Below are positions 22,051-26,156 of a stretch of 26,156 bases of DNA, piece after piece. The stretch is from Actinomycetales bacterium (lineage in GTDB: Bacteria > Actinomycetota > Actinomycetes > S36-B12). The stretch lies in NCBI GenBank assembly GCA_017849335.1, contig JAFIHP010000423.1, positions 1-26,156 of the forward strand. Direction: 5' to 3'. The notes beneath the pieces were generated by a model. That model was given only the letters and a program-made list of their open reading frames with translations, was not told the origin of the DNA and did no database searches. Both the position numbers and the translations under genes were made by a program. How positions within the stretch are numbered: the first letter of the stretch is position 1; every line of letters starts with the position of its first letter.

Positions 22051-22105
22051 GCCGGCGGCCCGCGTCGGCGGCGCTGCCGTGATGGTCCGCTGCGGACGCC
22101 ACGGA

Positions 22106-22150
22106 CGCGAGGAGGGGCGGCCCGCCGACGCGGACCGCCCCTCCTTCGCG
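22106..22150. terminator. Long GC-rich stem-loop between the convergent DUF6328 and permease genes
   Basis: CGCGA-GGAGGGGCGG-C-CCGC-CGAC-GCGG-A-CCGCCCCTCC-T-TCGCG. Confidence 0.7.
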
Positions 22151-22156
22151 CAGATC

Positions 22157-24112
22157 TCAGACGTTCGCGGCCGACGCCCGGTAGGCCCGCCATCCTCCGT
22201 ACGAGGTGATCTCGGGGTGCTGCTCGGCCATCTCCCGCTTGTACAGGATTCCCGGCACGACGCGGCCGTCGCTGAGCTCCACCGGCCCACGGTAGAGGCC
22301 CGGCGGCTCGCCCTCGATGACCTTCAGCAGCACCTCCAGCGGCACGAGGTACAGCTCCCCCGGGATCGACGCCCCGGTCTCGCCGTCCTCGACGCGGTAC
22401 ATGCCGGGGTGCACGTCGCCGATCGTGTGGACGCGGTACCGGGGAGCCGTCGAGATCTCCTCCACGAACTCCGCGCCGGCGAGGTTGCCATGCAGCTCCA
22501 GTCCGCGCATCAGCGTGCCGTTGACGAACAGCACGCCGTCGTCCAGCTCTCGTGCGGTGTCCCGTCGACCGGCCCAGCCGAAGTAGGCGAGGATCGCCGC
22601 GAAGAGCAGGTATCCGATCGTGATCTGCGGCGACGCGTTCCATGCGACTTCGTAGGCGTTGATGATGCCGACGAAGGACAGCGCGGCGGCCACGAGGGCG
22701 GTCGCGGCTGCCGCGTACATCCGACGGTCGATCACGAACGCCGTGATCGCGCCGAGGAGGACGCCGACGAGCACCGACCCCTGGCCGAACAGCTTGAGGC
22801 CGTCGTAGATGACGCCGTTGCTGATGAGGACGTCGACCCCGACGGCCTGCGCGTTCGTCGACGCGCTCGCGAGGGCGTTGTCGACCAGTCCCGTGGCCCA
22901 CTCCGCGATGCTCGGCAGCATCGCCACGACGATCGCCGGCGCGTAGCGCTTCGCGTTCACGTTGAAGGCCTGCGCGCCGATCACCATGCCGATGTAGAGC
23001 AGCACCGGGACCAGCGCCTGCATCGGGAAGACGGCGAGGAACGTCCCGACCAGTCCGGTGAAGCACACGACGGCGACGACGATCCCGGTCGCCAGGGAGT
23101 AGCCGATCCTCCCGCCAGCCTGCTTCCATCCCGGGTGGCCGATGTAGACCGCCGGCGGGAAGGGAGAGCCCAGGAAGGAGCCCACGACCGCGCCGAGGCC
23201 GTCGGCCGTCAGGACCTGCCGCACGGAGTAGCGATCACCGGCAGCAGCCGCGGACTCGACGTTTGTCATGCCCTCGGTGAAGTTGTAGATGCCGAGCGGG
23301 ATCGCCGAGGCGAGCAGCGGGGCGATGTCCTGCAGGCCGGTGACGACGTCGCCCGTCGGGAACGGCAGCTTGAGCGCCAGGTTGCTGATCGAGTCGGAGA
23401 CGCCCGAGGGCTCCAGGATCCCGGACCACCCCGCGGCGACGGCGATCCACGCGACCGCGGTCGACACGACGACCGCGAGCAAGGCGACCGGGACGCCGAA
23501 CGGCATCCGTCGGTTGCCCAGGAAGCCCACGAGGATGATCGCGAACGCGATGAAGCCGATCCAGGCGGCCTGCCACATCTGCGCGGCCGGCCGCATCGAG
23601 ATGAACGTGATCGAGATGCCGGCGAGGGCGCCGAGCAACGCCGCCCGCGGCGTGATGCGTCGGATGTACGGTCCGAGCACGGCGCCGAGCAGCACGATCA
23701 CGCCGACGATCAACGCCCACGCGAGGCCGGCACGGTAGGCCTTCATTGCGTCCCCGGACTGGATCAGCACCGGCAGCATGACGACGAAGACGACGATGAA
23801 CGTGTGCGGGACGCTCGGCCCGTAGGGCAGCGCCGTCACGTCGGTCCGGTTCTCCTTGCGGGCGAGGCGCCGCGCGAGCATCGCGTACCAGATGTTGCCG
23901 AGCGGCAGCGCGATGCCTAGCGCCGGCAGGATGCGTCCGTACACCGTGTCGCTGGGGATCTGCACGACGAACAGGCACAGGCCTGTCAGCACGATGACGT
24001 TGAGCAGGACGTTGGTGCCCAGGCCGAAGAGGCCGTTCCAGTCACCGCGCGTCCACCACGGGATGCGCACGCTCGGGGCGGTCCGGCCGCCGGCAGTCGC
24101 TGTCGTGCTCAT
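22157..24112 (-). CDS. NCS2/AzgA-like (xanthine/uracil-type) permease fused to a C-terminal allophanate-hydrolase-C / GGCT-like domain
   Basis: ATG 24112. About 13 TM segments with WWTRGDWNGLFG, TALPYGPSVPH, GSPFPPAVYIGHPGWK. The last ~125 aa (from about 22540) are soluble: VLFVNGTLMRGLELHGNL...TAPRYRV...PGMYR...IPGELY...EPPGLYRGPVELSDG...ITSYGGWRAY. Confidence 0.88.
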   Translation of the reverse strand: MSTTATAGGRTAPSVRIPWWTRGDWNGLFGLGTNVLLNVIVLTGLCLFVVQIPSDTVYGRILPALGIALPLGNIWYAMLARRLARKENRTDVTALPYGPSVPHTFIVVFVVMLPVLIQSGDAMKAYRAGLAWALIVGVIVLLGAVLGPYIRRITPRAALLGALAGISITFISMRPAAQMWQAAWIGFIAFAIILVGFLGNRRMPFGVPVALLAVVVSTAVAWIAVAAGWSGILEPSGVSDSISNLALKLPFPTGDVVTGLQDIAPLLASAIPLGIYNFTEGMTNVESAAAAGDRYSVRQVLTADGLGAVVGSFLGSPFPPAVYIGHPGWKQAGGRIGYSLATGIVVAVVCFTGLVGTFLAVFPMQALVPVLLYIGMVIGAQAFNVNAKRYAPAIVVAMLPSIAEWATGLVDNALASASTNAQAVGVDVLISNGVIYDGLKLFGQGSVLVGVLLGAITAFVIDRRMYAAAATALVAAALSFVGIINAYEVAWNASPQITIGYLLFAAILAYFGWAGRRDTARELDDGVLFVNGTLMRGLELHGNLAGAEFVEEISTAPRYRVHTIGDVHPGMYRVEDGETGASIPGELYLVPLEVLLKVIEGEPPGLYRGPVELSDGRVVPGILYKREMAEQHPEITSYGGWRAYRASAANV

Positions 24113-24114
24113 GG

Positions 24115-24801
24115 TCAGGCCTTCCTGGTCTCGTCGGATGCGGCGATGGCGTCGAGCAGGTCGGCGGACGTCCCGACCCAGCCGACGATGCCGCCCTGCG
24201 CCGCGAACATCGCGAGGGCGGACTGGTGGAACTCGGGGAAGTACGAGCCGGTGCAGTCCGACAGCACGAGGCACTCGAAGCCCCGGTCGTTGGCTGCCCG
24301 AACGGTGGTCTGCACGCACACCTCCGTCGTGACGCCCGTGACGACCAGGTGCGTGACCCCGGACGCGCGCAGGATCGCCTCGAGGTCCGTGGCGTAGAAG
24401 GCGTCCTTCCCGGGCTTGTCGAGCACGACCTCGCCCTCGACCGGGGCGAGCTCGGGGACGATCTCGTGGCCGGCGGATCCGCGGACGAGGAGCCGGCCCA
24501 TCGGACCGTCGTCGCCGATGCGCAGCGACGGGTTGCCGCGGTCCCGCTTGGCCGGGTACAGGTCGCTGAGGTCGGGCCGGTGCCCCTCGCGCGTATGGAT
24601 GACCATCGCGCCGTGCTCGCGGAAGGCGTCCAGCACGCGCCGGGTGGGCTCGATGGCGACCTGCAGCCGGGACACGTCGTTGCCGAGGGACTCCCCGAAG
24701 CCCCCGGGTTCGACGAAGTCACGCTGGAAGTCGATGCACAGAAGGGCTGTGCGGCCGAGCTCGAAGCGGAACGGGTAGGGCTCCGCTGCGGTGGTGATCA
24801 T
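24115..24801 (-). CDS. trtA: Isochorismatase-like cysteine hydrolase, triuret hydrolase (TrtA)-type
   Basis: Catalytic D24/K129/C162. F35, L39, N41, E160, Y187 and I205 match the six positions I recall as separating TrtA from biuret hydrolase BiuH. RBS GGAGGA. Confidence 0.8.
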   Translation of the reverse strand: MITTAAEPYPFRFELGRTALLCIDFQRDFVEPGGFGESLGNDVSRLQVAIEPTRRVLDAFREHGAMVIHTREGHRPDLSDLYPAKRDRGNPSLRIGDDGPMGRLLVRGSAGHEIVPELAPVEGEVVLDKPGKDAFYATDLEAILRASGVTHLVVTGVTTEVCVQTTVRAANDRGFECLVLSDCTGSYFPEFHQSALAMFAAQGGIVGWVGTSADLLDAIAASDETRKA

Positions 24802-24838
24802 GCGTCCTCCTTGGTGGCGCGATCCTTCGTCGGCCGGC

Positions 24839-25804
24839 TCAGGCGCCGGTCCGGGTGATCCGTGTTCCCGACCGGCCGCGCAGGGCCTCCGGGAGGGCAG
24901 CGATGGACGTGATCACGGCCTGCTCGCCGCCGGCGTCCAGGAAGGCCAAGGCCGACTCGATCTTCGGACCCATGGACCCGGCCGGGAACTCGCCCGCCGC
25001 CAGGTGATCTCGCGCCTCGGCGGCGTCGATGGTGTCGAGCGCGCGCTGGCGGTCGGTTCCGAAGCCGACGTACACCTGGTCCACCCCCGTGACGAGGACG
25101 AGGGTCTGCAGGCCGATGCGCGCGGCGAGGAGGGCGGACAGTCGATCCTTGTCGATGACGGCGTCCACGCTGCGCCAGCCGTCCTCGTCCCGCACGACCG
25201 GGATCCCGCCCCCGCCGCCGGCGATGACGACCGAGCCGGTTCGCACGAGGGCGGCGATCTGCGTCGCTTCGAGCACGTCCCGCGGGAGCGGACTGGAGAC
25301 CACGCGGCGGAAGACGCCGTCGCTGGTCTCGCTGACGGTCCAGCCGGCCTCCGAGACGCGCAGGCGGGCGACGTCCGCGGACATCGTCGAGCCGATCGGC
25401 TTGGTGAGATGGTCGAACGCCGGGTCGGCCGGGTCCACCTCGGCATGCGTGAGGACCGTCACGGCGCGCTGATCGACGCCGCGGCGCGCGAGCGCGTTGT
25501 CGACCTCCAGGGTCAGGATGTGCCCGATGCCGCCCTGGGAGTCGGCGACGGCCAGCCACAGCGGCAGGTCGGGCAGGCCCTCGATCGGCGCCTCGGGCGC
25601 GACGAGCTCCCCGCGGCGCAGGATGTAGCCGACCTGGGGACCGTTGCCGTGGCTGACGACCACCTGCCAGCCGTCGGCCACCAGGCCCGCGACCTGCTCG
25701 GCGAAGGAGGCCGCCCGCTCCTGCTGGCGCACGATCGATCCGGCCTCGCCCTCCAGCACGAGGGCGTTCCCGCCGATCGCGATGAGAGCGCTGGGGGCGC
25801 TCAT
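24839..25804 (-). CDS. arcC: Carbamate kinase
   Basis: Motifs IGGNAL, SHGNGPQVG, KPIG, RRVVSSP.P, GGGGIPV, AVIDKD, GSMGPK. The ATG overlaps the upstream stop (ATGA). Confidence 0.95.
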   Translation of the reverse strand: MSAPSALIAIGGNALVLEGEAGSIVRQQERAASFAEQVAGLVADGWQVVVSHGNGPQVGYILRRGELVAPEAPIEGLPDLPLWLAVADSQGGIGHILTLEVDNALARRGVDQRAVTVLTHAEVDPADPAFDHLTKPIGSTMSADVARLRVSEAGWTVSETSDGVFRRVVSSPLPRDVLEATQIAALVRTGSVVIAGGGGGIPVVRDEDGWRSVDAVIDKDRLSALLAARIGLQTLVLVTGVDQVYVGFGTDRQRALDTIDAAEARDHLAAGEFPAGSMGPKIESALAFLDAGGEQAVITSIAALPEALRGRSGTRITRTGA

Positions 25805-26156
25805 CGTCCGGCCTCCCGCGCGAGCGCGTGGACGGCCGCCACGAACACCTCGGGCGGGGCGGTCACGATGCCGGCGCCGATCTGGCCGACCCCGGCCTCC
25901 CGGTGCGCGATCCCGGTGTTGATCACCGGGAGCACCCCGGTGTCGAGGACGGCGAGCACGTCGATGCCGCTCGGCGTCCCGGTGAAGTTGAGCGAGGGGA
26001 TGGGGAACGCCGGGTGGGGGCGCACGGTGATCCGCCGCATCGACCGCGAGATGGCGAGCGCATCGTCGGGCGTCCCCCCGACGAACTGCGTGATCGCGGG
26101 CGCGGCCGCCATGGCGAACCCGCCCAGGCCGACCGTCTCGGTGGTCGCCGAGTCGC
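25801..26156 (-). CDS. DUF1116 (YlbE/AllG/YahG-like) protein, C-terminal part; 5' end outside the window
   Basis: The frame is open to the window edge: DSATTETVGLGGFAMAAAPAI..FVGG...IPSLNFTGTPSGIDV...LPVINTGIAHREAGVGQIGAG, closely resembling the recalled E. coli YlbE C-terminus (GDSAITET.GIGGFAMA.APAI, LPVINTAIAHK.AGVG.IGAG). Confidence 0.9.
   Translation of the reverse strand, partial: DSATTETVGLGGFAMAAAPAITQFVGGTPDDALAISRSMRRITVRPHPAFPIPSLNFTGTPSGIDVLAVLDTGVLPVINTGIAHREAGVGQIGAGIVTAPPEVFVAAVHALAREAGR

What the first reader, a model, noticed from the sequence alone, without database searches (positions are those of the whole stretch)
22157..26156. Candidate new ureide pathway: triuret hydrolase coupled to a carbamoyl-phosphate/ATP-generating module
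Seen: four tightly packed co-oriented genes (ATGA overlap, 37-nt gap, 2-nt gap): DUF1116, carbamate kinase, TrtA-type hydrolase and permease fusion. Established: E. coli YlbE/AllG is part of the AllFGH oxamate carbamoyltransferase, which phosphorolyses oxalurate to oxamate plus carbamoyl phosphate, and carbamate kinase then makes ATP. The described triuret route is purely hydrolytic (TrtA, then biuret hydrolase BiuH, then allophanate hydrolase). Inference: here triuret, or a related ureide or ring-opened s-triazine/pyrimidine, is imported and deaminated. The product (biuret) could then be phosphorolysed by an AllG-type transcarbamylase to urea plus carbamoyl phosphate, conserving energy as ATP. 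No biuH or full allophanate hydrolase lies downstream in the window. I know of no description of such a route, but could not search the literature.
Basis: partly seen in the sequence, partly recalled or inferred. Interest (0 to 1): 0.8.

Follow-up and report, generated by a model that had tools for sequence, protein, structure and literature searches.

The report
Triuret hydrolase joined to ATP-yielding carbamoyltransferase operon
This is the actinobacterial version of a widespread, biochemically untested operon that probably imports the urea-chain compound triuret and breaks it down through carbamoyl phosphate, gaining ammonia and ATP instead of using the known all-hydrolytic route.

Summary
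On the minus strand lie an AllG/DUF1116 3' fragment, carbamate kinase, a hydrolase with the full TrtA (triuret) signature, and a UraA-fold permease fused to an allophanate-hydrolase C-like domain. Spacing is as described: ATGA overlap, 37 nt, 2 nt.

The missing upstream part lies on contig C170: the rest of allG, then allF, allH and a divergent PucR regulator.

The same seven-gene unit recurs with unrelated flanks in Cellulomonas, Mycobacterium and actinobacterial MAGs. It occurs rearranged in Chloroflexota and Proteobacteria, and in E. coli CFT073, where its small protein is the solved c4763.

In 80 TrtA loci, AllF/AllG lay within 10 kb in 15. AtzH/TrtB-type genes were never with them. Ten genomes with the linkage have no BiuH and no AtzH/TrtB, and 8 of 10, counting this one, have no AllD-family gene.

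My best reading (about 35%) is that the AllFGH-like complex phosphorolyses TrtA's product, carboxybiuret, to allophanate plus carbamoyl phosphate.

Colocation of trtA/biuH with allFGHK is published for nitrifier MAGs, read there as two pathways. I found no paper describing the route. This scan reported the same cassette earlier on other DNA (E. coli, Firmicutes, Rokubacteria).

The parts
25801..26154 (-). 3' end (117 codons plus stop) of the allG-like (DUF1116) gene. The first ~340 codons are on contig C170 (L002 18888-20000).
   Evidence: The C170 end overlaps the window end by 30 aa at 93% identity. The Pfam AllG domain (296 bits) is on C170. The joined length of about 457 aa matches the 458-aa orthologues.
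24839..25804 (-). Carbamate kinase, 321 aa. Its ATG overlaps the allG stop (ATGA).
   Evidence: PF00696 matches. NF009007 scores 319 bits against a cut-off of 266. Identity is 47% to E. coli YahI and 38% to AllK.
24115..24801 (-). TrtA-type (triuret hydrolase-like) cysteine hydrolase of the isochorismatase family, 228 aa, with an AAGGAGG site upstream.
   Evidence: The best PDB hits are TrtA 6XIX/6XJE at 281 bits, gapless over residues 1-215. All catalytic, binding and TrtA-versus-BiuH residues are in the TrtA state. The BiuH model scores 278 bits, below its cut-off of 370.
22553..24112 (-). Permease domain (residues 1-520) of the fusion protein, with a UraA/SLC26/AzgA-type fold.
   Evidence: Hydropathy is. 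The AF2 model has pLDDT 83. Foldseek matches SLC26Dg, SVCT1, UraA, AZG1 and UapA at probability 1.0, with TM by target 0.44-0.74. There is no Pfam hit. JGI names it an AGZA-family permease. A homologous permease follows TrtA directly in 59 of 80 loci.
22157..22552 (-). C-terminal AH_C / GGACT-like domain (residues 521-651) of the fusion protein, plus the stop codon.
   Evidence: PF21986 E 5e-31 and PF06094 E 2e-8. PDB 5C5Z (E. coli c4763) at 81 bits, allophanate hydrolase C domains at about 26 bits; 5C5Z TM 0.82; motif VNGTLMRG where AtzF C domains have VVGAHLSG.
22105..22151 (-). GC-rich hairpin directly after the permease stop codon; likely the end of the operon.
   Evidence: -48.1 kcal/mol, z-score -7.4 against shuffles, none of 200 shuffles as stable. 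It has no T tail, so the consensus terminator scan did not list it.

Best explanation
The four genes are the distal part of one PucR-controlled operon: allH-allF-allG-carbamate kinase-trtA-permease::AH_C, split over contigs C170 and C269. It is a self-contained unit for using triuret or a very close urea-chain analogue.

Proposed steps:
1. The UraA-fold permease imports triuret.
2. TrtA hydrolyses one terminal amide, giving NH3 and 1-carboxybiuret. This activity was shown for the Herbaspirillum enzyme and is inferred here from identical active-site residues.
3. The AllFGH-like complex is a third branch of the family, beside E. coli AllFGH and YahEFG. It transfers the terminal carbamoyl group of carboxybiuret to phosphate, giving carbamoyl phosphate and allophanate. 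This is an inference by analogy with oxalurate + Pi -> carbamoyl phosphate + oxamate.
4. Carbamate kinase converts carbamoyl phosphate and ADP into ATP, NH3 and CO2.
5. Allophanate is then removed. Either the AH_C-type domain acts on it (perhaps decarboxylation to urea, which the genome's urease can use), or a second phosphorolysis does. This is the weakest step.

In this reading AllFGH-like plus carbamate kinase replaces AtzE+AtzH or TrtB+BiuH of the hydrolytic routes and conserves energy.

My odds for the separate steps:
- one functional unit: 0.9
- the hydrolase acts on triuret: 0.7
- the complex makes carbamoyl phosphate from a TrtA-derived ureide: 0.5
- that ureide is carboxybiuret: 0.35
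For: - **Conserved unit.** The same seven genes with unrelated flanks occur in Cellulomonas cellasea, Mycobacterium sp. 21AC1 and an actinobacterial MAG, and in Chloroflexota (L031, L089, L094). Rearranged versions occur in Burkholderiales, Alphaproteobacteria and Anaerolineae. E. coli CFT073 has one with an NCS1 permease and a LysR regulator.
- **Linkage when both genes are present.** In the phylum sample, every genome holding both a TrtA-type hydrolase and AllG has them less than 3 kb apart (4 of 4).
- **Same hydrolase everywhere.** All 84 TrtA-type hydrolases share one active-site signature whatever module they sit with. They form one clade in which the AllFG-linked ones are scattered among AtzE/H- and BiuH-linked ones. 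This fits one substrate with interchangeable downstream modules.
- **Exclusion of the hydrolytic modules.** AtzH/TrtB-like genes are near 0 of 15 AllFG loci against 19 of 65 others. AtzE-like amidases are near 0 of 15 against 16 of 65.
- **Missing canonical steps genome-wide.** Ten genomes with the linkage, three of them 98-100% complete, have no BiuH over cut-off, no second BiuH-family gene and no PF11533 gene. The own genome likewise has none. The known fates of carboxybiuret are therefore absent.
- **Allophanate must come from somewhere.** L049 and L056 combine TrtA, AllF/AllG, carbamate kinase and AtzF without BiuH. L043 and L127 combine TrtA, a lone DUF1116 gene and AtzF without BiuH.
- **AH_C and AtzF alternate.** Cassette-type AH_C and AtzF never co-occur among AllFG loci (8 against 5).
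- **No source of oxalurate.** There is no Ldh_2/AllD-family gene in 8 of 10 linked genomes, counting the own genome, so the canonical source is missing.
- **Not an AllG orthologue.** The cassette AllG lies outside the E. coli AllG and YahG clades and is about equally distant from both.
- **Published hint.** PMC12625717 reports that comammox contigs with allFGHK lack trtB.
Against: - No biochemistry exists for any AllFGH-like complex other than E. coli AllFGH on oxalurate (PMC11326118).
- The exclusion statistics are modest (Fisher p 0.016 and 0.033), are not corrected for relatedness, and rest on 10-kb flanks and BLAST calls.
- BiuH coexists with AllF/AllG in L042, L050 and L077 and in published comammox contigs. 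AtzF coexists in others. The module is therefore not a clean replacement.
- Four Solirubrobacteraceae-type loci have only a divergent DUF1116 gene, without AllF, AllH or carbamate kinase nearby.
- The AllG tree backbone is unresolved, so a dedicated TrtA-linked subfamily is not shown.
- The role of AH_C is unknown. It lacks the His that is invariant in the 19 AtzF C domains compared.
- Most AllG genes in the phylum sample (33 of 37 genomes) are not linked to TrtA.
- A later check of the same idea on E. coli DNA in this scan gave the bold reading only 25 in 100.
Confidence: 0.35

Rival explanations
1. Carboxybiuret loses CO2, either spontaneously or helped by the AH_C domain acting like TrtB. 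The AllFGH-like complex then phosphorolyses biuret to urea plus carbamoyl phosphate. Carbamate kinase makes ATP and urease finishes the urea.
For: - No BiuH is found in any of ten linked genomes or in the own genome.
- Carboxybiuret decarboxylates with a half-life of about 20 min (PMC7948467).
- Urease is present in 6 of 7 linked genomes examined, and the seventh has an allophanate hydrolase. The base rate in the phylum sample is 40 of 251.
- AH_C-type domains derive from a domain that acts on an N-carboxylated product. This function is from my own knowledge; PMC5770610 states only that the N and C domains act sequentially.
- AtzH/TrtB is absent wherever AllF/AllG is present.
Against: - Biuret is neutral, whereas the known substrate oxalurate and its leaving group oxamate carry a carboxylate.
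- L049 and L056 (with AllF/AllG and carbamate kinase) and L043 and L127 (with a lone DUF1116 gene) keep a full AtzF with no BiuH in the genome. This route makes no allophanate to feed it.
- L042 and L050 carry BiuH next to TrtA together with AllG or AllF/AllG, which would make the complex redundant.
Confidence: 0.15
2. Two parallel scavenging activities sit under one regulator. TrtA takes one ammonia from triuret. The AllFGH-like complex and carbamate kinase act on oxalurate, as in E. coli. Both compounds are non-enzymatic oxidation products of uric acid, so they share a PucR-type regulator and perhaps a transporter.
For: - E. coli AllFGH is the only characterised member of the family, and it uses oxalurate (PMC11326118).
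- The published reading of the colocation in nitrifiers is two pathways (PMC12625717).
- Oxaluric acid and triuret are both listed as specific urate oxidation products (abstract of PMC11782772).
- PucR-family regulators are named for purine catabolism.
Against: - Biuret or carboxybiuret would be a dead end in all ten linked genomes, which have no BiuH and no AtzH/TrtB. AtzE-like amidases were absent from the 10-kb flanks but were not searched genome-wide.
- The linkage has been re-created in at least five gene orders across phyla.
- The cassette AllG is not in the E. coli AllG clade.
- Only one transporter is present.
- No oxamate-using enzyme is evident in the cassette.
Confidence: 0.2
3. The operon handles a different, still unidentified planar ureide taken up by the nucleobase-type permease, for example an amide whose hydrolysis yields oxalurate or another N-carbamoyl acid. 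The TrtA-like enzyme has a specificity that the known signature residues do not reveal.
For: - Identity to the characterised TrtA is only about 62%.
- TrtA was tested on few substrates (Table 2 of PMC7948467).
- The transporter has a nucleobase/anion-transporter fold.
- E. coli yahEFG-yahI-yahJ pairs a homologous module, in the same gene order, with a different hydrolase. These modules therefore serve various substrates.
Against: - All catalytic, binding and second-shell residues defined for TrtA are identical.
- Cassette hydrolases are interleaved in the tree with hydrolases that sit beside BiuH, AtzE/AtzH and AtzF, which are genes of carboxybiuret and biuret chemistry.
Confidence: 0.15

Closest known systems
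E. coli K-12 allF-allG-allH-allK (oxamic transcarbamylase plus catabolic carbamate kinase; PMC11326118, PMC9843812)
   Same: It has the same three subunit families (FdrA-like, DUF1116, DUF2877) followed by a carbamate kinase. The reaction logic is the same: an N-carbamoyl compound plus Pi gives carbamoyl phosphate, then ATP.
   Different: The gene order here is H-F-G-K, not F-G-H-K. AllG identity is 47-51%, the same as to the paralogue YahG, and the cassette AllG falls outside the E. coli AllG clade. There are no allantoin genes and no AllD in the genome. It is linked instead to a TrtA-type hydrolase, a permease and an AH_C domain.
Hydrolytic triuret pathway TrtA-(TrtB)-BiuH-AtzF of Herbaspirillum sp. 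BH-1 and Rhizobium (PMC7948467)
   Same: The first enzyme is the same: about 62% identity, all defining residues, and TrtA as the best PDB hit.
   Different: BiuH, TrtB and AtzF are absent from the cassette and from the genome. An AllFGH-like complex and a carbamate kinase stand in their place.
AtzE/AtzH route for 1-carboxybiuret in cyanuric acid degraders. The enzymology is from my own knowledge; the AtzH-like family is Pfam PF11533.
   Same: It has the same proposed input (carboxybiuret) and output (allophanate, NH3, CO2). It is the commonest neighbour module of TrtA-permease pairs in Proteobacteria.
   Different: It is purely hydrolytic and yields no ATP. It was never found together with AllF/AllG in the 80 loci.
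E. coli CFT073 island between ysgA and metE: cysteine hydrolase, DUF2877, FdrA, DUF1116, carbamate kinase, c4763 (PDB 5C5Z), cytosine permease, LysR
   Same: The gene content is the same. The hydrolase is 62% identical with an identical TrtA signature. AllG is 51% identical, the kinase 43% and the AH_C protein 44%.
   Different: The hydrolase comes first. AH_C is a free-standing protein. The permease is NCS1-type, not UraA-fold. The regulator is LysR, not PucR.
E. coli K-12 yahE-yahF-yahG-yahI-yahJ (function unknown)
   Same: The order is identical: DUF2877, FdrA-like, DUF1116, carbamate kinase-like, then a hydrolase. The cassette kinase is closer to YahI than to AllK.
   Different: The hydrolase YahJ belongs to the metal-dependent amidohydrolase family, not the cysteine hydrolases. 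There is no AH_C and no permease.
trtA/biuH collocated with allFGHK in comammox Nitrospira and ammonia-oxidising archaeal MAGs (PMC12625717)
   Same: It shows the same colocation of a TrtA/BiuH-type hydrolase with allFGHK. The comammox contigs lack trtB.
   Different: Those loci also carry biuH and atzF and an ABC transporter. The authors read them as two separate pathways (biuret and oxalurate).

Membership tests
Triuret hydrolase TrtA (isochorismatase-like cysteine hydrolase) | Catalytic triad Asp-Lys-Cys (D24, K129, C162) and the residues of the cis-peptide (V157-T158) | tested here: met
   One search gives the residue read-out. One search shows a gapless alignment to 6XIX/6XJE with the same numbering. 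The definitions come from PMC7948467. The cis conformation itself was not modelled.
Triuret hydrolase TrtA (isochorismatase-like cysteine hydrolase) | Substrate-contact residues E72, K132 and Q202, and the positions that separate TrtA from BiuH (F35, N41, A134, E160, Y187, I205 against Y, Y, S, D, T, V) | tested here: met
   All are in the TrtA state. All 84 TrtA-type sequences share the signature, apart from A134/S (and one I205V).
Triuret hydrolase TrtA (isochorismatase-like cysteine hydrolase) | Hydrolysis of triuret to carboxybiuret, with very low activity on biuret | not testable with these tools
   This needs an enzyme assay.
Biuret hydrolase BiuH | Score over the curated cut-off of NCBIfam NF050097 (370 bits), plus the BiuH residues | tested here: not met
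   277.8 bits; none of the BiuH-state residues is present.
Oxamate carbamoyltransferase AllFGH | Three adjacent genes of the FdrA/AllF, DUF1116/AllG and DUF2877/AllH families, with a carbamate kinase | tested here: met
   PF06545 at 294-296 bits, PF11392 at 62 bits, PF00549 at 111 bits; the kinase. The genes are split over contigs C170 and C269.
Oxamate carbamoyltransferase AllFGH | Orthology to the characterised E. coli AllF/G/H rather than to paralogues | tested here: not met
   equal identity to All and Yah proteins; the cassette AllG lies outside the well-supported E. coli AllG clade and the YahG clade. The backbone is unresolved.
Oxamate carbamoyltransferase AllFGH | Context of allantoin/ureidoglycolate catabolism that supplies oxalurate (AllD) | tested here: not met
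   No Ldh_2/AllD-family gene is in the own genome or in 7 of 9 other linked genomes. No allantoinase scores over cut-off. The own genome is 86% complete.
Oxamate carbamoyltransferase AllFGH | Pi-dependent formation of carbamoyl phosphate from oxalurate | not testable with these tools
   This needs an enzyme assay.
Carbamate kinase | Score over a curated NCBIfam carbamate kinase cut-off | tested here: met
   NF009007 scores 319 against 266. The equivalog TIGR00746 scores 296, below its cut-off of 358.
Allophanate hydrolase AtzF/AH | N-terminal amidase-signature domain joined to the AH_C domain | tested here: not met
   only the C-terminal domain is present (residues 528-645). TIGR02713 scores 60 bits against a cut-off of 511. 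The N-terminal part is a membrane transporter.
Allophanate hydrolase AtzF/AH | Conserved residues of the AH C domain | tested here: inconclusive
   Many residues are shared (G532, G537, Y559, R560, P569-G570, E586, W641-R642). The His that is invariant in 19 AtzF C domains (GAHL) is Leu in all 12 cassette-type domains. I could not read the paper that defines the catalytic residues.
UraA-fold transporters (NCS2 / AzgA / SLC26-SulP) | Match to Pfam Xan_ur_permease or a related sequence model | tested here: not met
   no Pfam family even at E 10. One search gives only a feature-based lead (0.89).
UraA-fold transporters (NCS2 / AzgA / SLC26-SulP) | 7+7 inverted-repeat fold | tested here: met
   The model has pLDDT 83. 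Foldseek gives probability 1.0 to SLC26Dg (TM by target 0.74), UraA (0.55-0.61), SVCT1 (0.58), AZG1 (0.44) and UapA (0.62).
PucR-type regulator | PucR N-terminal domain, GGDEF-like domain and C-terminal HTH_30 | tested here: met
   on contig C170, divergent from allH. The same regulator accompanies the cassette.

The most novel reading that the evidence does not exclude
AllFGH-like complexes are a general class of N-carbamoyl:phosphate transferases. This branch is a carboxybiuret phosphorylase that forms allophanate, and it may act again on allophanate. Urea-chain compounds would then be stripped one carbamoyl unit at a time, yielding up to two ATP per triuret. The cassette-type AH_C domain, including the solved but unassigned E. 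coli protein c4763, would be a new enzyme that disposes of the N-carboxylated remainder, for example an allophanate decarboxylase feeding urease.
Probability: 0.3. Interest if true: 0.8.

Novelty: new variant of a known kind. Interest (0 to 1): 0.6.

Why it matters
If the reading holds, there are four consequences.

- Triuret, a urate oxidation product and fertiliser impurity, and carboxybiuret, which is also the ring-opening product of cyanuric acid, would have an energy-conserving phosphorolytic route beside the two hydrolytic ones.
- The recently discovered three-subunit AllFGH enzyme class would gain a second substrate.
- A very common fusion protein, now annotated as 'gamma-glutamylcyclotransferase' or 'allophanate hydrolase-related', would gain a function. 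So would the structurally solved uropathogen protein c4763.
- It would explain why trtA/biuH sits with allFGHK in nitrifiers.

The cassette is compact, widespread and present in culturable strains, so the hypothesis can be tested directly.

Tried and rejected
- **Pfam and NCBIfam on the 117-aa AllG fragment alone.** No hit. The contig join resolved it instead.
- **Pfam on the permease domain.** Nothing even at E 10. The fold search resolved it.
- **AllFGH simply replaces AtzF.** Rejected, because a full AtzF sits with AllF/AllG in L049, L056 and L077, and with a lone DUF1116 gene in L043.
- **AllFGH simply replaces BiuH.** Weakened, because BiuH sits beside TrtA and AllG in L042, and AllF/AllG in L050.
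- **BiuH, AtzF or a cyanuric acid hydrolase elsewhere in the genome.**
  - No BiuH or AtzF scores over cut-off.
  - PF09663 matched none of ten genomes, but no control genome matched it either, so that negative result is weak.
- **A single origin of TrtA-linked AllG.** The tree could not decide.
- **Urease as support for urea being a product.** Urease is present in 6 of 7 linked genomes against 16% of the phylum sample. The families concerned are urease-rich anyway, so I give this little weight.
- **The papers on the AH C domain and on c4763.** They are not held. The catalytic residues of AH_C could therefore not be checked against a source.

Full report
**1. What is in the window**

The window is the whole of contig C269 of a 2.88-Mb, 433-contig, 86%-complete, 72%-GC genome. 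The four genes of the finding lie on the minus strand.

| Gene | Coordinates | Notes |
|---|---|---|
| AllG-like 3' fragment | 26154..25804 | 117 codons, runs off the contig end |
| Carbamate kinase | 25804..24842 | start overlaps the previous stop as ATGA |
| Isochorismatase-family hydrolase | 24801..24118 | follows a 37-nt spacer with an AAGGAGG site |
| Permease::AH_C fusion | 24112..22160 | 651 codons, follows a 2-nt spacer |

A very stable hairpin follows the last stop codon: -48 kcal/mol, z -7.4.

**2. The part beyond the window**

The 117-aa fragment has no Pfam hit by itself. The only AllG domain in the genome sits at the 3' end of contig C170. That end overlaps the reverse complement of the window end by about 95 nt with about four mismatches, which is 28 of 30 residues. 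The two contigs are therefore one locus, broken at a point of strain heterogeneity.

C170 carries, in order, a divergent PucR-type regulator, AllH (DUF2877), an FdrA/AllF-like protein and the first 370 residues of AllG. The operon is thus pucR <> allH-allF-allG-kinase-hydrolase-permease::AH_C.

**3. The hydrolase**

- Its best solved relatives are TrtA of Herbaspirillum (6XIX/6XJE, 281 bits, gapless over residues 1-215). A biuret hydrolase, RhdBiuH (253 bits), and then BiuH (223 bits) follow.
- The alignment has no gaps, so the residue numbers coincide.
- Against the residue list in PMC7948467, every position is in the TrtA state. This covers D24, K129, C162, E72, K132, Q202, F35, N41, A134, E160, Y187 and I205.
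- The NCBIfam BiuH model scores 278 bits, below its cut-off of 370.
- Among cluster representatives, two sharp signature classes exist, TrtA-type and BiuH-type.

**4. The transporter fusion**

Residues 528-645 match the allophanate hydrolase C-terminal domain (PF21986, E 5e-31). They match GGACT more weakly.

The closest solved protein is E. coli c4763 (5C5Z, 81 bits, TM 0.82). True allophanate hydrolase C domains score about 26 bits.

The first 520 residues have no Pfam match. An AlphaFold model (pLDDT 83) has the UraA/SLC26/SVCT/AzgA fold.

The fusion is common in Actinobacteria, with thousands of hits annotated as gamma-glutamylcyclotransferase or allophanate hydrolase-related. In Chloroflexota the AH_C part is a separate gene just after the permease, and in some Anaerolineae it lies just before TrtA.

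Cassette-type AH_C domains share many residues with AtzF C domains. They replace the invariant His of the AtzF motif with Leu, and read more like the GGACT motif.

**5. Is the linkage conserved?**

Three look-ups of fusion homologues returned the identical seven-gene unit with completely different flanks, in Cellulomonas cellasea, Mycobacterium sp. 21AC1 and an actinobacterial MAG.

I then fetched 80 loci around TrtA-type hydrolases (62-81% identity) from one-genome-per-species contigs of many phyla. I searched their 10-kb flanks with the cassette proteins.

- A homologous permease follows TrtA directly in 59 of 80 loci. TrtA plus permease is the core pair.
- AllF or AllG lies within 10 kb in 15 loci. 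Three more have only the kinase.
- The linked loci come from Actinomycetota, Chloroflexota, Burkholderiales and Alphaproteobacteria, in at least five gene orders.
- AllG occurs in only 37 of 251 genomes of the phylum sample, so chance linkage is negligible.
- In that sample, every genome holding both a TrtA-type hydrolase and AllG has them less than 3 kb apart.
- E. coli CFT073 carries the same gene set between ysgA and metE, with c4763 as the AH_C component. Its hydrolase is 62% identical with the identical signature.

**6. What accompanies TrtA elsewhere**

Clustering the neighbours and annotating them shows the usual partners in Proteobacteria:
- an AtzE-like amidase plus an AtzH-like protein (PF11533)
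- BiuH
- AtzF
- a GntR regulator

AtzH/TrtB-like genes are near 19 of 65 loci without AllF/AllG and near 0 of 15 with them. AtzE-like amidases are near 16 of 65 against 0 of 15. The Fisher p values are 0.016 and 0.033, uncorrected for relatedness. AtzF and BiuH are not excluded.

Cassette-type AH_C is strongly tied to AllF/AllG: 8 of 15 against 2 of 65. The two exceptions are kinase-bearing remnants, L027 and L079. Among loci with AllF/AllG, cassette-type AH_C and AtzF never occur together.

The TrtA tree places all TrtA-type sequences in one clade apart from BiuH. The AllFG-linked ones are scattered among the others, and all share one active-site signature. This is the pattern expected if one enzyme and one substrate have been combined repeatedly with alternative downstream modules.

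**7. Whole-genome checks**

| Feature searched | Result |
|---|---|
| BiuH over cut-off, or a second BiuH-family gene | none in ten linked genomes (three 98-100% complete) |
| PF11533 (AtzH/TrtB) | none in the same ten |
| BiuH and AtzH-like in the own genome | none |
| True allophanate hydrolase | only C. cellasea, among five cassette genomes |
| Cyanuric acid hydrolase | none found, but no positive control matched |
| Ldh_2/AllD-family gene | absent from 8 of 10 linked genomes, counting the own genome |
| Urease | 6 of 7 linked genomes; 16% of the phylum sample |

The known fates of carboxybiuret and biuret, and the known source of oxalurate, are therefore missing from these organisms.

**8. 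The AllFGH-like proteins**

- They are about equally distant from E. coli AllF/G/H and from the paralogous YahE/F/G. The kinase is nearer YahI.
- The yah cluster has the same order as this cassette: DUF2877, FdrA-like, DUF1116, kinase, hydrolase.
- In an AllG tree, the TrtA-linked sequences fall into several clades. None falls within the strongly supported E. coli AllG or YahG clades. The backbone is unresolved.
- Function therefore cannot be transferred from E. coli AllFGH by orthology.
- Most AllG genes in the phylum sample sit in other contexts.

**9. Mechanism**

*Shown:*
- the operon structure
- the family memberships
- the TrtA signature
- the conservation of the unit
- the absence of canonical downstream enzymes

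*Established for relatives:*
- TrtA converts triuret to carboxybiuret, which decays to biuret with a half-life of about 20 min (PMC7948467).

*Inferred:* the AllFGH-like complex takes carboxybiuret, which differs from oxalurate by one NH, and yields carbamoyl phosphate plus allophanate. This does the job of AtzE+AtzH, or of TrtB+BiuH, with a gain of ATP.

This accounts for three observations:
- the exclusion of AtzH/TrtB and AtzE
- loci that keep AtzF with no BiuH in the genome: L049 and L056 with AllF/AllG and the kinase, L043 and L127 with a lone DUF1116 gene
- the published remark that comammox contigs with allFGHK lack trtB (PMC12625717)

Allophanate would then go to AtzF where it is present. 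In this cassette it would go to the AH_C domain, perhaps giving urea for urease, or to a second phosphorolysis. That last step is the least certain.

**10. Rivals**

They are weighed in their own sections.

**11. Literature and earlier scan notes**

The only paper held that mentions both gene sets is PMC12625717. It notes the colocation in nitrifier MAGs and treats allFGHK as oxalurate catabolism. Searches for carboxybiuret with carbamate kinase, for biuret with phosphorolysis, and for triuret since 2021 found no description of the route.

This scan had already reported the same cassette type on other DNA, with the same reading: E. coli islands, a plasmid, a Firmicute and a Rokubacteria locus. 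One of those reports was later given 25 in 100 for the bold reading. I verified the E. coli CFT073 case myself.

**12. Verdict**

This is a new variant of known kinds. It is widespread, coherent and directly testable, but it rests wholly on comparative inference.

Noticed in passing
window 26062-26156 and G000 contig C170 23320-23414: The two contig ends overlap by about 95 nt with about four mismatches. The assembly broke inside allG at a point of strain heterogeneity, and the two contigs can be scaffolded as C170(+) followed by C269(-).
   Followed up: yes
L004 12019-15900 (Mycobacterium sp. 21AC1): The cassette is followed directly by a second AllF-AllG-AllH set. Its AllG groups with E. coli YahG at full support, so two different branches of the family sit in one locus.
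   Followed up: partly
L027 8996-12645 (Geodermatophilus sp.) and L079 8706-12812: Both carry kinase-TrtA-permease::AH_C with no AllF/G/H within 10 kb. In L027 the kinase matches in two pieces, a possible frameshift, next to a catalase-peroxidase gene. They look like remnants of the cassette.
   Followed up: partly
L043, L044, L072, L127 (Solirubrobacteraceae and relatives): A lone, very divergent DUF1116 gene on a long branch is transcribed divergently from TrtA-permease, with no AllF, AllH or kinase nearby. Two of the four loci (L043, L127) also have AtzF. What a DUF1116 protein does alone is unexplained.
   Followed up: no
L039 9230-12439 (Chloroflexota MAG): Two tandem paralogous permeases lie between TrtA and AllF-AllG-kinase.
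   Followed up: no
P0122, P0123, P0124, P0127 and others: Many metagenomic proteins are natural fusions of two isochorismatase-like domains. P0122 joins a BiuH-signature domain to a TrtA-signature domain. In P0123, P0124 and P0127 one domain has lost catalytic residues (Asp changed to Lys or Asn, Cys to Gly).
   Followed up: no
window 22160-22552 (residues 531-537 of the fusion): All 12 cassette-type AH_C domains read VNGTLMRG where 19 AtzF C domains read VVGAHLSG. The AtzF-invariant His is Leu, and the motif resembles that of GGACT/AIG2-like proteins (the resemblance is from my own knowledge).
   Followed up: partly
L107 3426-10008 (E. coli K-12 yahE-yahJ): The uncharacterised yah cluster has the same order as this cassette (DUF2877, FdrA-like, DUF1116, kinase, hydrolase) but with a metal-dependent amidohydrolase. 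This suggests a modular design of hydrolase plus carbamoyl phosphorylase plus kinase.
   Followed up: partly
G000 contigs C58 (6026-6397) and C116 (5933-6262): The genome has two urease alpha-subunit matches, at 174 and 103 bits. The second may be a paralogue, a strain variant or contamination.
   Followed up: no
L108-L124: Most AllF-AllG(-kinase) sets in the sampled phylum lie in other contexts, without TrtA and often near PucR-type regulators and amidases. Their partners and substrates were not examined.
   Followed up: no
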